A stretch of 64,000 bases of DNA from Alphaproteobacteria bacterium (GTDB lineage Bacteria; Pseudomonadota; Alphaproteobacteria; Rickettsiales; SXRF01): contig JANRKF010000013.1 of assembly GCA_033763575.1 (NCBI GenBank), positions 81,396 through 145,395 of the forward strand. The letters run 5' to 3'. The translations under genes and the position numbers were made by a program. Shown here in pieces: positions 10,927 through 13,366 of the stretch (within the stretch, counting starts at the first letter, position 1; every line of letters begins with the position of its first letter). Below the pieces are notes generated by a model, which was not told the origin of the DNA, ran no database searches, and saw only the letters and a list, made by a program, of their open reading frames with translations.

Positions 10927-12590
10927 GCCATTACTACATTACCACCCCGATTTATTATGTGAACGACCGCCCGCATATCGGCCATGCCTATACCTCGGTG
11001 GCGTGCGACGTGCTGGCCCGTTTCAAGCGCCTTTCCGGCGAAAACGTCCGATTTCTGACGGGTACGGACGAGCATGGGCAAAAGGTCGAAAAATCCGCAG
11101 CCGCACAGGGTATCTCCCCACAAGCCATGGCCGATGCGAACTCGCAACATTTCCGGGACATGGCGCAGCTCATGAATATCAGCAACGACGATTTCATCCG
11201 CACCACCGAGCCGCGCCATAAAAAAGCCGCGCAGGCATTATGGAAAAAAATGGCGGATCAAGGCTTCATCACGCTGGGTTCCTATGCCGGGTGGTATGCC
11301 GTGCGCGACGAAGCCTACTATGCCGAATCCGAATTGGTGAACGGCAAAGCCCCCACGGGCGCGGATGTCGAGTGGGTGGAGGAGCCGAGCTATTTCTTCA
11401 CGCTCTCGGAGTTTCAGGACAAGTTGCTGGCGTTTTACGAGGCCAACCCCGGCTTCATCCAGCCCGATTCCCGCCGCAACGAGATCATCAGCTTCGTGAA
11501 GGGAGGCCTTCGGGATTTATCCATCAGCCGCACCACCTTTAGCTGGGGTATTCCAGTGCCAATCACCTCCCCCAATAGGGGGGAGGGAGTACACATCATG
11601 TATGTCTGGCTGGATGCGCTCACCAACTATCTCTCGGCGCTCGGCTACCCCGAAAACACCCCGGAAATGGCCTTCTGGCCGGCCAGCCTGCACATGGTGG
11701 GGAAGGACATCATCCGCTTCCACGCGGTATACTGGCCGGCCTTCCTGATGGCCGCCGATTTGCCACTGCCGAAACAGGTCTTCGCGCATGGCTGGTGGAC
11801 GATCGAGGGCGAAAAAATGAGCAAATCGCTGGGAAATGCCATCGCGCCCGCCGATCTCGTCGCCGAATTCGGCCTCGACCAGACCCGCTGGTTCCTGATG
11901 CGCGAAGTGCCCTTCGGAAACGACGGCAATTTCAGCCGCGAGCGCATGATTACGGTCATTAACAGCGAGCTGGCCAACAATATCGGCAACCTCTGTCAGC
12001 GCACGCTGTCGATGATTGCCAAGAATTGTGATGGGAAAGTGCCAAATTGGAGTAAAAGTTGGGGCAGCAATCCAGACGACATAAAAAAAGCAGTGGAAAG
12101 AGCCTTAGCTCTTCCGCTCGGGGAATATGCTAAATTAACAAAAGAAGAGACTGCAAAACTTGAATCTTTAGCTCAGTTATATGATAGCGGCGGGGTATCT
12201 GCATCTGCTGTAGGAATCCGTGGTATTGATTTTGAAACAATTGCAGATCAAGTAAGCCACTGCCAATTTGATAAATATCTTGGAAATATAATTAAATGGT
12301 CATCTGAGGCAAATGAGTACATTGATAAATACGCGCCTTGGACATTTAAAAAAGAGAGTAAGCTAGAAGAGATGGAAGCTGTCCTTTTCTCCTTAGCTGA
12401 ATCTATTCGTAAAATAGCAATTTTACTTTGGCCAGTAATACCCACCTCTGCCGCTAAGATTCTTGATCAGTTGGCCGTGCCCCCTGCCGAGAGGGGGTTC
12501 AAGCATTTGAGTGCCGAATTCGCCCTGAAACCGGGCACGCCTCTCCCCCCCCCGAGTGGCGTATTCCCTCGCGTGGGGGGCGCGGTGTGA
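10923..12590 (+). CDS. metG: Methionine--tRNA ligase
   Basis: [24 protein letters not shown] (HIGH motif) ...KMSKSLGN (KMSKS motif). ATGA overlap with holB. Contains a short repeat-derived insertion (11563-11592) and an AT-rich 3' segment. Confidence 0.93.
   Translation: [555 protein letters not shown]
11563..11592. repeat. Family-1 hairpin (cctccccc-aata-ggggggagg) embedded in frame in metG
   Basis: cacctcccccaataggggggagggagtac encodes ITSPNRGEG between the conserved GIPVP and [10 protein letters not shown] blocks. Confidence 0.6.
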
Positions 12591-13366
12591 TGCTGGTTGA
12601 CTCCCATTGCCACCTGAACTTCCCGGACTATAAAACCGACCTTCCGGACGTCATCAAACGGGCGAGGGAGGCGGGGGTTGGGGTCATGCAGACCATCTGC
12701 ACCGAAGTCGCCGAATTCGAGGAAGTTTACGCCATTGCCGAAGCAAACGAGGGAGTTTTTTGCTCCGTGGGAGTGCATCCGAATGATTCCGGTAAGGAAG
12801 AAATCGTTGATTCAAAATGGCTTATCGAGCAATGTTCACGCAAAAAAGTGATCGGCATCGGGGAGACGGGGCTGGATTACCACTACGAAACCACCGACCG
12901 CGAACACCAGAAAAAATCACTATATCAACATATTATAGCAGCTCGTGAAACCGGCGTTCCGCTAATACTCCACACCCGCGATGCCGATGACGATACGGCA
13001 GAGATATTATCCACAGAAATTCCAAAGGGAAATATACGCGGAGTCCTTCACTGCTTTACCTCTTCAAAACAACTTGCTGATAAAGCAGTGGAATTAGGAT
13101 TTTACATCTCCCTTTCCGGAATTATCTCTTTCAAGAACGCTGCCCCCCTGCATGAGGCTATCCGCGATGTTCCGCTGGATCGGCTGCTGGTGGAAACCGA
13201 TGCGCCGTTCCTCGCCCCCATCCCATTTCGCGGAAAACGCAACGAACCGGCCCATGTGGTCCATACCAACCGCATTCTGGCGGGCATTAAAGGCATTTCC
13301 GAGGAGGAGTGCGCCCGCATCACCACCGAGAACTTCTTCCGGCTATTTGACAGGGCGGCGGCATGA
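12587..13366 (+). CDS. tatD: TatD-family metal-dependent hydrolase (DNase)
   Basis: MLVDSHCHLNFPDY..., IGETGLDYHY, LHTRDA, LHCFT, VETDAPFL: all the conserved TatD metal-ligand blocks. GTGA overlap with metG. Confidence 0.88.
   Translation: MMLVDSHCHLNFPDYKTDLPDVIKRAREAGVGVMQTICTEVAEFEEVYAIAEANEGVFCSVGVHPNDSGKEEIVDSKWLIEQCSRKKVIGIGETGLDYHYETTDREHQKKSLYQHIIAARETGVPLILHTRDADDDTAEILSTEIPKGNIRGVLHCFTSSKQLADKAVELGFYISLSGIISFKNAAPLHEAIRDVPLDRLLVETDAPFLAPIPFRGKRNEPAHVVHTNRILAGIKGISEEECARITTENFFRLFDRAAA

What the first reader, a model, noticed from the sequence alone, without database searches (positions are those of the whole stretch)
12020..13140. Compositional mosaicism inside metG and tatD
By eye, metG 12020-12470 drops from about 60% GC to well under 45% GC. 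An example stretch is ccaaattggagtaaaagttgg...gataaatatcttggaaatataattaaatggtcatctgaggcaaatgag. This segment spans the anticodon-binding helical domain and carries roughly 40 extra residues relative to the MetRS layout I recall.

The adjacent tatD shows similar AT-rich patches (about 12780-12850 and 12900-13140), separated by GC-rich stretches. Codon usage in the patches resembles the orphan genes, not the backbone. This suggests intragenic recombination with a low-GC donor, giving patchwork essential genes.
Basis: seen in the sequence. Interest (0 to 1): 0.6.

Follow-up and report, generated by a model that had tools for sequence, protein, structure and literature searches.

The report
AT-rich swapped module inside MetRS gene
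A sharply bounded AT-rich stretch in the only methionyl-tRNA synthetase gene is an old, divergent version of the anticodon-binding module whose ancestry differs from the rest of the gene, and similar AT-rich stretches mark many other tRNA synthetase genes of this Rickettsiales-like bacterium.

Summary
In metG, third-codon-position GC (GC3) is 0.28 in codons 367-515 (window 12024-12467), against 0.76 upstream and 0.78 downstream. This is the second strongest intragenic drop among 1649 ORFs. Amino-acid composition predicts 0.62.

tatD has two weaker dips. Codon usage in the patches matches the genome's low-GC gene class.

- **metG:** the tract is a distinct "type A" anticodon-domain allele with about 45 extra linker residues. 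Its phylogeny conflicts with the catalytic domain (AU p = 7e-5). Both breakpoints lie in conserved motifs. So intragenic recombination occurred, but its direction is unresolved.
- **Low GC is not a donor signature:** nine of ten other type A carriers with DNA show the same dip, and synonymous sites between them are saturated. No AT-rich donor turned up in the protein and metagenome libraries searched.
- **tatD:** the dips are shared with the sister species, one recurs across the family, and the segment relationships are congruent. There is no private recombination there.

Seven of the 13 strongest mosaic ORFs are aminoacyl-tRNA synthetase pieces (MetRS, ValRS, HisRS, IleRS twice, SerRS, CysRS). 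I read the metG tract as a sub-genic "homeoallele". What keeps it AT-rich is unexplained.

The parts
10923..12590 (+). metG, the only methionyl-tRNA synthetase gene of the genome (555 aa)
   Evidence: Pfam tRNA-synt_1g scores 3.4e-107 and Anticodon_3 scores 1.2e-6. NCBIfam NF008900 scores 647.8 bits against a cut-off of 598. The HIGH (HIGH, 18-21) and KMSKS (298-302) motifs can be read in the translation. No second metG was found in G000.
10923..12023 (+). GC-rich catalytic part (codons 1-367), closest to the same-genus genome G002
   Evidence: GC3 is 0.76. Amino-acid identity to G002 is 90%. It forms a starred clade with L002, P0011 and L005. Several sub-tracts reach 0.9-1.0 nucleotide identity to G002.
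11566..11586 (+). 21-nt GC-rich palindrome CCTCCCCCAATAGGGGGGAGG, in frame; six extra residues (SPNRGE) relative to G002
   Evidence: There is an 18-nt gap in the G002 alignment at this point. At least 8 further copies at 95-100% lie elsewhere in the genome, several encoding SP..GEG peptides inside other genes.
12024..12467 (+). Low-GC3 tract (codons 368-515), the mosaic module
   Evidence: GC3 is 0.28, likelihood ratio 54.8, rank 2 of 1649. Even conserved columns inside the tract have GC3 0.22, while variable columns outside it have 0.69. The z-score against the amino-acid expectation is -9.8.
12045..12212 (+). Expanded linker N375-V430, about 45 residues longer than in other MetRS; a homologous long linker occurs only in G019
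   Evidence: Alignments. G019 has a collinear linker at 32% identity. There is no credible hit in 1.84 billion representative proteins. It is not repeated in the genome and not palindromic. AlphaFold2 suggests two helices at low confidence.
12213..12467 (+). 'Type A' anticodon-binding helices (G431-D515), with a one-residue indel (KKESKLEEM) that marks the allele class
   Evidence: The type A set forms one clade in the tree of this segment (96/64; 14 of 15 at 97/93*). The catalytic-domain data reject that clade (p-AU 7e-5). Identity to type A carriers is 0.62-0.67 against 0.45-0.63 to the sister type.
12468..12590 (+). GC-rich 3' tail of metG (codons 516-555), again closest to G002 and P0011
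   Evidence: GC3 is 0.78. Identity is 82-85% to L002 and P0011 against 51-67% to the type A carriers.
12587..13366 (+). tatD (TatD/YchF-family hydrolase, 259 aa); its start overlaps the metG stop (GTGATG)
   Evidence: Pfam PF01026 scores 5.6e-83 over its full length. TIGR00010 scores 286 bits. Identity to G002 is 93%.
12722..12847 (+). tatD low-GC3 tract 1 (codons 46-87)
   Evidence: GC3 is 0.40, z = -3.1. G002 shows the same dip at 0.88 nucleotide identity.
12911..13102 (+). tatD low-GC3 tract 2 (codons 109-172)
   Evidence: GC3 is 0.30, z = -6.0. It is shared with G002 (0.80 nucleotide identity). The dip at codons 141-180 recurs across the family, with mean deviations of -0.10 and -0.16.
13200..13500 (+). 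Tract 95-100% identical to G002 (tatD 3' end, spacer, start of the MBL-fold gene): a footprint of recent exchange
   Evidence: Synonymous identity is 0.97 here against 0.69 in the rest of tatD, permutation p = 0.01.

Best explanation
**What it is.** The metG tract (window 12024-12467) is an old, divergent allelic module. It holds the 'type A' form of the first helices of the MetRS anticodon-binding domain plus a long linker. It sits in a gene whose catalytic domain and 3' tail belong to a different lineage, that of the sister species G002.

**How the patchwork arose (inferred).** Homologous recombination occurred with crossovers in the two conserved motifs that flank the module: ...[16 protein letters not shown]... 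and ...[12 protein letters not shown].... This is the way whole-gene aminoacyl-tRNA synthetase 'homeoalleles' are swapped through conserved flanks, but here it happened inside the gene. I cannot tell whether the module was imported or whether the conserved flanks were overwritten by repeated short conversion tracts from G002-like relatives.

**The AT-rich codon usage (shown).** It is not a stamp of a recent foreign donor. It belongs to the module and persists in GC-rich genes of several genera after synonymous sites have saturated. Some regional process therefore keeps these stretches AT-rich.

**What keeps it AT-rich (speculative).** My best guess is that the force raising GC3 elsewhere, such as GC-biased conversion, does not act in these stretches.

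**tatD and the wider pattern.** The tatD dips are the same kind of position-stable compositional feature, inherited vertically and not produced by a private recombination. The pattern is genome-wide and concentrated in aminoacyl-tRNA synthetase genes.
For: **Tract-level shift.** The edges are sharp. GC3 follows the tract, not residue conservation: variable columns in the catalytic domain have 0.69, conserved columns in the patch have 0.22. Amino-acid composition does not explain it.

**Incongruence.**
- The catalytic-domain tree places the window with L002, P0011 and L005 (96/97*).
- The patch tree unites all 15 type A sequences (96/64), and 14 of them at 97/93*.
- The catalytic-domain data reject a type A clade, p-AU 7e-5 and 6e-5.
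- The patch data disfavour the catalytic-domain clade, p-AU 0.06 and 0.03.
- Sliding identity crosses over at both edges.
- Very AT-rich type B sequences (L028, L029) do not join type A, so compositional attraction is not the cause.

**Age and stability.**
- Type A carriers L003, L005, L012, L016, L023, P0002, P0007 and G019 all dip to GC3 0.23-0.42 in backbones of 0.47-0.81. P0005 dips only in the linker.
- Synonymous third-position identity between carriers is 0.31-0.67, about chance level.
- G019, a different genus with only 82% catalytic-domain identity, shares the long linker.

**Recombination is active here.** Against G002, holB, metG and tatD each show significant heterogeneity of synonymous identity (p = 0.01), with tracts of 0.93-0.97 against 0.52-0.69 elsewhere in the same genes. 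Gene-wide values are mostly 0.47-0.66.

**Generality.**
- Ranks 2, 3, 4, 6, 8, 9 and 13 of 1649 ORFs are MetRS, ValRS, HisRS, IleRS (two pieces), SerRS and CysRS. The hypergeometric P is 1e-10, or 7e-7 among ORFs of 400 codons or more.
- HisRS exists as two deep types within the family.
- SerRS and ValRS tracts sit at sites whose length varies between relatives.

**Known model.** Homeoallele replacement through recombination in conserved flanks is described in PMC3191353.
Against: - The patch alignment has only 70 columns, and the AU test on it is borderline (p 0.06 and 0.03).
- I had no independent species tree. The catalytic domain served as the reference, and it is itself recombining.
- Vertical inheritance of type A in this lineage is not excluded. 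The window-L005 pair has 85% catalytic-domain and 61% patch identity, at the low edge of the range for type A pairs. The recombinant could then be the G002 lineage.
- The proposed cause of the stable AT-richness is untested. Local GC3 does not correlate with synonymous identity to G002 (rho 0.01), and the general link between conservation and GC3 is weak (0.61 to 0.75).
Confidence: 0.6

Rival explanations
1. Recent import. A tract of about 450 bp from an unsampled AT-rich relative replaced the native segment of metG by double crossover, and it has not yet ameliorated. The tatD patches would be similar imports.
For: - The boundaries are sharp, and conserved residues inside the tract use AT-ending codons.
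- Codon usage matches the genome's low-GC gene class.
- The sister genome G002 lacks both the tract type and the dip.
- AT-rich genomes exist in the same genus and family, for example G001 at about 42% GC.
Against: - No donor was found. The best identity is 66% in the protein search and 71% over the helical segment, and all best hits are themselves mosaics in GC-rich backbones.
- The same dip occurs in nine of the ten other type A carriers with DNA, with saturated synonymous sites. This would need many independent recent imports at one site.
- The tatD dips are shared with G002 and one recurs across the family, so they predate the species.
- Donor and recipient with GC3 of 0.3 and 0.76 would share few long identical runs even in conserved motifs (inference).
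Confidence: 0.15
2. In-place divergence without recombination. The anticodon-domain helices and the tatD segments are weakly constrained regions under a different local mutation or selection regime. They evolved fast and became AT-rich where they are, and 'type A' is convergence.
For: - Across 447 blocks compared with G002, local GC3 correlates with amino-acid identity (rho 0.27), with the ortholog's GC3 (rho 0.40) and negatively with gaps (rho -0.22).
- The dips are position-stable across genera.
- The low-GC3 segments of tatD are its less conserved segments.
Against: - The AU test rejects congruence (p = 7e-5).
- Type A shares a one-residue indel and several non-compositional motifs (FDKY, IRKIAI, GKLEEMG).
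- AT-rich type B sequences do not cluster with type A.
- The general conservation effect is far too small (0.61 against 0.75) to give 0.28.
- GC3 inside the tract is independent of column conservation.
Confidence: 0.12
3. Assembly artefact. The metagenome-assembled contig is a chimera that joins metG pieces from two organisms of different GC content.
For: The genome is a 35-contig metagenome-assembled genome at 92% completeness. The exact protein is on record from one contig only. Read mapping was not possible.
Against: - It would take two in-frame junctions that return to the same backbone within 450 bp, on a 176-kb contig.
- The same architecture (a GC-rich catalytic part, an AT-rich type A segment and a more GC-rich tail) appears in independent assemblies: G010, G015, G009, G019, and the contigs of P0002 and P0007.
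- G019 also carries the long linker.
Confidence: 0.03

Closest known systems
Aminoacyl-tRNA synthetase homeoalleles and biased gene transfer (Andam and Gogarten 2011, PMC3191353)
   Same: - Two divergent forms with the same function coexist in a higher taxon, with one form per genome.
- Their distribution conflicts with relatedness.
- The gene neighbourhood is the same for both forms.
- Replacement is proposed to occur by homologous recombination in conserved flanks.
- HisRS in this family behaves as a classic whole-gene case.
   Different: In metG the exchanged unit is a sub-genic module of about 150 codons, bounded by conserved motifs inside the gene, not the whole gene. The module also carries its own stable AT-rich synonymous composition. 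I did not find that feature in the passages of the paper I read.
Mosaic genes made by interspecies homologous recombination (for example penicillin-binding protein genes of Streptococcus and Neisseria; from my own knowledge)
   Same: Blocks of divergent sequence alternate with blocks close to the sister lineage. The breakpoints fall within the coding frame, and the gene stays functional.
   Different: In those cases donor species are identified, the blocks are recent (nucleotide identity to donors is high) and drug selection explains them. Here no donor is known, the block is old, and no selective agent is known.
Compositionally atypical horizontally acquired DNA and its amelioration (Lawrence and Ochman model; from my own knowledge)
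   Same: An AT-rich tract with atypical codon usage sits in a GC-rich genome and resembles the genome's orphan-like genes.
   Different: The tract has not ameliorated although synonymous sites are saturated among carriers, and the same positions are AT-rich in many genera. This does not fit a one-off import drifting towards the host's composition.
GC-biased gene conversion in bacteria (Lassalle et al. 2015, PMC4450053)
   Same: That work reports recombining genes with higher GC3. Here GC-rich conserved cores show recent exchange with a sister species, while the AT-rich modules do not align with that species.
   Different: The published signal is between genes or genome regions. Here the contrast is sub-genic and step-like. 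My one direct test found no correlation between local GC3 and recent exchange.
Rickettsia palindromic elements inserted in frame in housekeeping genes
   Same: They add extra residues in frame in an essential gene of a Rickettsiales-like genome. A true small palindromic copy is present in metG at 11566-11586.
   Different: The 56-residue linker is neither palindromic nor repeated. It is therefore not an intact element of that kind.

Membership tests
Methionyl-tRNA synthetase (class I, short bacterial form) | Catalytic Rossmann-fold domain with HIGH and KMSKS motifs, and a family profile score above the cut-off | tested here: met
   PF09334 scores 3.4e-107. NF008900 scores 647.8 bits against a cut-off of 598. 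HIGH at 18-21 and KMSKS at 298-302 are visible in the translation.
Methionyl-tRNA synthetase (class I, short bacterial form) | Helical anticodon-binding domain (Pfam Anticodon_3) | tested here: met
   PF19303 scores 28.9 bits against a cut-off of 23.5, but only residues 461-550 match profile positions 46-134. The first helices and the long linker do not match.
aaRS homeoalleles (PMC3191353) | Two divergent forms of identical function within a higher taxon, one per genome | tested here: met
   Types A and B are separated in the patch tree. No genome searched showed a second MetRS-grade match.
aaRS homeoalleles (PMC3191353) | Distribution of the forms conflicts with organismal relatedness | tested here: inconclusive
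   It conflicts with the catalytic-domain tree (AU p = 7e-5) and with genus assignment: the same-genus genomes G001 and G002 are type B. No independent species tree was built.
aaRS homeoalleles (PMC3191353) | Both forms occupy the same gene neighbourhood, consistent with replacement through flanking recombination | tested here: met
   The order holB-metG-tatD-MBL holds in the window and in G002, G015, and the contigs of P0002 and P0007.
aaRS homeoalleles (PMC3191353) | The whole gene is the divergent, exchanged unit | tested here: not met
   Only codons 368-515 are discordant. The catalytic domain and the tail group with the sister species. I therefore file it as a sub-genic variant, not a member.
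Recently acquired foreign DNA | A closer relative in a compositionally matching donor than in sister lineages | tested here: not met
   The best hits reach 66% (protein search) and 71% (helical segment), and all lie in mosaic, GC-rich backbones. No AT-rich donor was found.
Rickettsia-palindromic-element-like in-frame insertion | A hairpin-forming palindrome present in many copies in the genome | tested here: not met
   This applies to the 56-residue linker. DNA folding gives z = +0.28. There is no significant inverted repeat and no second copy in the genome. By contrast, the 21-nt palindrome at 11566-11586 does meet both criteria.
TatD/YchF metal-dependent hydrolase | Full-length match to the family profiles | tested here: met
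   PF01026 matches residues 4-254 of 259 at 5.6e-83. TIGR00010 scores 286 bits against a cut-off of 206.

The most novel reading that the evidence does not exclude
In this Rickettsiales-like family, essential genes (aminoacyl-tRNA synthetase genes above all) may be stably partitioned into two kinds of segment. GC-rich conserved cores are continually homogenised between species by GC-biased conversion. AT-rich divergent modules are excluded from that process, persist as ancient allele classes, and move only as whole cassettes. If so, the step-like GC3 edges would be a sub-genic, natural read-out of where recombination-linked GC bias acts in a bacterium.
Probability: 0.2. Interest if true: 0.7.

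Novelty: new variant of a known kind. Interest (0 to 1): 0.5.

Why it matters
- **A caution for genome interpretation.** A strong compositional anomaly inside an essential gene need not mean a recent foreign import. Here the AT-rich codon usage has outlived saturation of synonymous sites in several genera. Standard amelioration reasoning does not predict that.
- **Smaller exchange unit.** The known exchange of divergent synthetase alleles between relatives seems to work below the gene level, at domain-sized modules bounded by conserved motifs.
- **Concentration in tRNA synthetase genes.** Seven of the 13 strongest cases are synthetase pieces. This points either to a special recombination history of these genes or to a regional force on base composition that could be measured.
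- **A testable system.** If the cause is exclusion from GC-biased conversion, this family gives unusually sharp material for a debated question: why bacterial genomes are GC-rich despite AT-biased mutation.

Tried and rejected
- **Amino-acid composition as the cause:** rejected. Expected GC3 is 0.62 against 0.25 observed.
- **Site-level selection for accurate translation:** rejected. Conserved columns in the patch are as AT-rich as variable ones.
- **Palindromic-element origin of the extra linker:** rejected for an intact element.
- **Embedded RNA element:** no Rfam match in 11500-13600 at E up to 1.
- **Overlapping gene on another frame:** no ORF of 80 aa or more lies inside the tract.
- **Compositional attraction creating the type A clade:** rejected. 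The very AT-rich type B sequences L028 and L029 stay outside it.
- **Donor search:** all of these found no AT-rich donor.
  - 5.8 billion proteins.
  - A named-genome scan, which was wasted because the patterns were too specific and returned only unrelated taxa at 29-44%.
  - 400 genomes of the order.
  - Two metagenome scans, for the junction and for the insert peptide.
- **Origin of the linker:** HMMER against 1.84 billion representatives gave only three marginal hits to repetitive proteins, which I judge spurious.
- **Structure:** the AlphaFold2 model was too poor (mean pLDDT 55) to place the linker, so I ran no fold search.
- **Recent exchange raising GC3:** a simple test found no correlation, rho 0.01.
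Full report
**1.

The window carries holB (9952-10926), metG (10923-12590), tatD (12587-13366) and an MBL-fold hydrolase gene (13482-14261) on the + strand.

- GC in 150-nt windows falls from about 0.6 to 0.33-0.45 between 12000 and 12450, then returns to 0.65.
- The stretch 12020-12470 has GC 0.39. The rest of metG has 0.58 and the 1.94-Mb genome has 0.556. The stretch lies below the 1st percentile of 450-nt genome windows.
- The shift is mostly synonymous. GC3 is 0.76 in codons 1-365, 0.28-0.31 in codons 366-516 and 0.77 in the last 39 codons.
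- A two-state HMM puts the edges at 12023/12024 and 12467/12468. It finds two tatD tracts, 12722-12847 (GC3 0.40) and 12911-13102 (0.30), separated by a segment at 0.86.

I computed a best-low-segment likelihood ratio for 1649 ORFs of the genome. metG ranks 2nd (54.8) and tatD 36th (14.3). The largest of 200 within-gene permutations was 9, and 113 ORFs exceed 10.

Amino-acid composition does not explain the drop. Leaving out Met and Trp codons, the metG tract should have GC3 0.62 and has 0.25 (z = -9.8). tatD codons 109-172 should have 0.64 and have 0.30 (z = -6.0).

The extra residues are also real. This MetRS has 555 aa against 502-533 in 29 relatives. The linker N375-V430 has 56 residues where the type A relatives L005 and L023 have 9 and 13.

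**2. The shift follows a tract, not residue conservation**

- Inside the catalytic domain, even poorly conserved columns have GC3 0.69.
- Inside the tract, even columns conserved in at least 70% of relatives have GC3 0.22.
- The step happens within a few codons, at ...[14 protein letters not shown]... and ...[12 protein letters not shown].... These are two of the best conserved motifs of the region.

This rules out site-level selection on codon choice. It shows that a contiguous piece of DNA has its own synonymous composition.

**3. The tract has a different ancestry from the rest of metG**

The aligned part of the tract (G431-D515) belongs to a recognisable allele class that I call type A. 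It has a one-residue indel (KKxGKLEEM against KKxxP-ERM) and motifs such as FDKY and IRKIAI.

- Type A occurs in loci from genomes G015, G010, G009, G005 and G038, and in eight metagenome proteins.
- The two other genomes of the window's own genus (G001, G002) have type B.
- The catalytic domain is 90% identical to G002 and the tail 82%. The helical segment is 53-57% identical to G002, depending on the alignment window, against up to 71% to type A carriers.
- The catalytic-domain tree puts the window in a starred clade with L002, P0011 and L005.
- The tree of the helical segment unites all 15 type A sequences (96/64; 14 of them at 97/93*).
- The catalytic-domain data reject a type A clade (p-AU 7e-5). 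The 70-column helical data disfavour the catalytic-domain clade (p-AU 0.06 and 0.03).
- A sliding comparison crosses over at both edges.
- The most AT-rich type B sequences do not join type A, so compositional attraction is not the explanation.

I conclude that intragenic recombination has shaped this gene.

Its direction is open. The window and L005 are both type A and close in the catalytic domain, so the G002 lineage could be the one that switched. Alternatively, the conserved flanks of the window's gene could have been overwritten piecemeal by G002-like DNA.

The flanks do show recent exchange with G002. holB, metG and tatD each have significantly heterogeneous synonymous identity (p = 0.01). 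Some tracts reach 0.93-0.97, against 0.52-0.69 elsewhere in the same genes. The stretch 13200-13500 is 95-100% identical.

**4. Low GC is not a donor signature**

- A search of 5.8 billion proteins with the tract found nothing better than 66% identity, and only over the helical part.
- 400 genomes of the order gave at most 65%.
- Two metagenome scans, for the junction and for the insert peptide, found nothing.
- Among the other type A carriers for which I had DNA, G015, G010, G005, G009, G038, P0002, P0007 and G019 all show a GC3 dip to 0.23-0.42 at the same place, in backbones of 0.47-0.81. P0005, in a mid-GC backbone, dips only in the linker.
- Third-position identity at identical residues between carriers is 0.31-0.67, which is about chance level.

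So the module has stayed AT-rich inside GC-rich genes for longer than it takes synonymous sites to saturate. The alternative is that it was re-imported many times at one site.

G019, from another genus and with only 82% catalytic-domain identity, also carries a collinear long linker (32% identity) and the same dip. The insert is therefore old and not private to this genome.

The linker has no credible relative elsewhere. It is not repeated in the genome and is not palindromic. A low-confidence AlphaFold2 model shows two helices.

**5. tatD is a different case**

- G002's tatD is 93% identical and has the same GC3 profile (Spearman 0.77). Nucleotide identity inside the dips is 0.80-0.93.
- G002 is the nearest relative in all six tatD segments.
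- The dip at codons 141-180 recurs across the family.

What tatD does show is a very recent exchange of its GC-rich 3' end with the G002 lineage.

**6. The pattern is genome-wide and concentrated in tRNA synthetase genes**

Among the 13 ORFs with the strongest intragenic drops, seven are synthetase pieces: MetRS, ValRS, HisRS, IleRS (two contig pieces), SerRS and CysRS. The hypergeometric P is about 1e-10, or 7e-7 among ORFs of 400 codons or more, assuming 25 synthetase ORFs.

- **SerRS:** it carries a 60-residue AT-rich insert that G002, G001, G003 and G009 lack. G010 and G015 have unrelated AT-rich inserts at the same site.
- **HisRS:** it occurs as two deep types in the family. The window's gene is 65-67% identical to G010, G015 and G003 but 47-49% to G001, G002 and G009. 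The GC3 step at about codon 150 is shared with G010.
- **ValRS:** the tract sits at a site whose length varies between relatives.

Across 447 thirty-codon blocks compared with G002, local GC3 correlates with the ortholog's GC3 (rho 0.40), with amino-acid identity (rho 0.27) and negatively with gaps (rho -0.22). The general effect is small, 0.61 against 0.75, so the synthetase tracts are outliers.

**7. Comparison with what is known**

The closest described phenomenon is the synthetase "homeoallele". These are divergent forms of one enzyme that coexist in a higher taxon and replace each other, sometimes by recombination in conserved flanks while synteny is kept (PMC3191353).

HisRS here looks like a classic whole-gene case. 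The metG tract differs in two ways. The exchanged unit is sub-genic, and it carries a stable AT-rich synonymous composition.

The recombination-linked GC bias reported for bacteria (PMC4450053) is a candidate for the regional force. My one direct test found no link between local GC3 and recent exchange (rho 0.01), so this remains a guess.

Earlier notes of this scan describe the genome as an uncultured Rickettsiales-like bacterium with palindromic elements and a gene-transfer-agent-like cluster. I confirmed a 21-nt member of a palindrome family in frame in metG at 11566-11586. I did not test the rest.

**8. Limits**

The same architecture in six independent assemblies makes a chimera unlikely.
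- There is no independent species tree.
- The helical alignment is short.
- The cause of the persistent AT-richness is unexplained.

**Verdict**

I file the metG tract as a new variant of a known kind, a sub-genic homeoallele-like module.

Noticed in passing
window 11566-11586: A 21-nt GC-rich palindrome (CCTCCCCCAATAGGGGGGAGG) sits in frame in the catalytic domain of metG and adds six residues (SPNRGE) that G002 lacks. At least 8 further copies at 95-100% are scattered over the genome, several read as SP..GEG peptides inside other genes.
   Followed up: partly
genome contig C14:19173-21596 and C15:41035-42426 (outside the window): The isoleucyl-tRNA synthetase gene is split over two contigs at a PSPSGRGLGEG-type repeat. 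It carries a complete DUF559 endonuclease-like domain (aa 428-533 of the C-terminal piece, 5.9e-42) in frame inside its anticodon-binding domain, flanked by such repeats.
   Followed up: partly
window 13200-13500 and 10740-10860: Two tracts are 93-100% identical at the nucleotide level to the same-genus genome G002, while the 5' part of holB is only 0.57-0.80 identical. One tract covers the tatD 3' end, the spacer and the start of the next gene. They look like very recent inter-species conversion tracts.
   Followed up: partly
genome contig C4:1670-3058 (hisS): HisRS exists as two deep types within the family. The window's genome has a different type (47-49% identity) from the two other genomes of its genus. 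GC3 steps from about 0.68 to 0.31 at codon ~157, and G010 shares this step.
   Followed up: partly
genome contig C33:103941-105380 (serS): A 60-residue AT-rich insert (GC3 0.24) lies between the N-terminal arm and the class II core of SerRS. Four relatives lack it. Two others have unrelated AT-rich inserts at exactly the same site.
   Followed up: partly
window 14284-14691 and 14737-15492: Two ORFs after the MBL-fold gene have no Pfam match. The first is AT-rich (GC3 0.41). The second has a 54%-identical counterpart in G002.
   Followed up: no
window 15443-17470: A single 675-aa ORF reads as EPSP synthase fused to cytidylate kinase (aroA-cmk). A relative's contig carries the same fusion, with Pfam PF00275 and PF02224 on one product.
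   Followed up: no
window 6958-9885: A 975-aa ORF rich in Ala, Pro, Glu and Lys alternates between high and low GC3 segments. It ends in an EF-hand-like loop (DLNQDGEFDYEDL). It resembles the mosaic orphan protein noted earlier on another piece of this genome.
   Followed up: no
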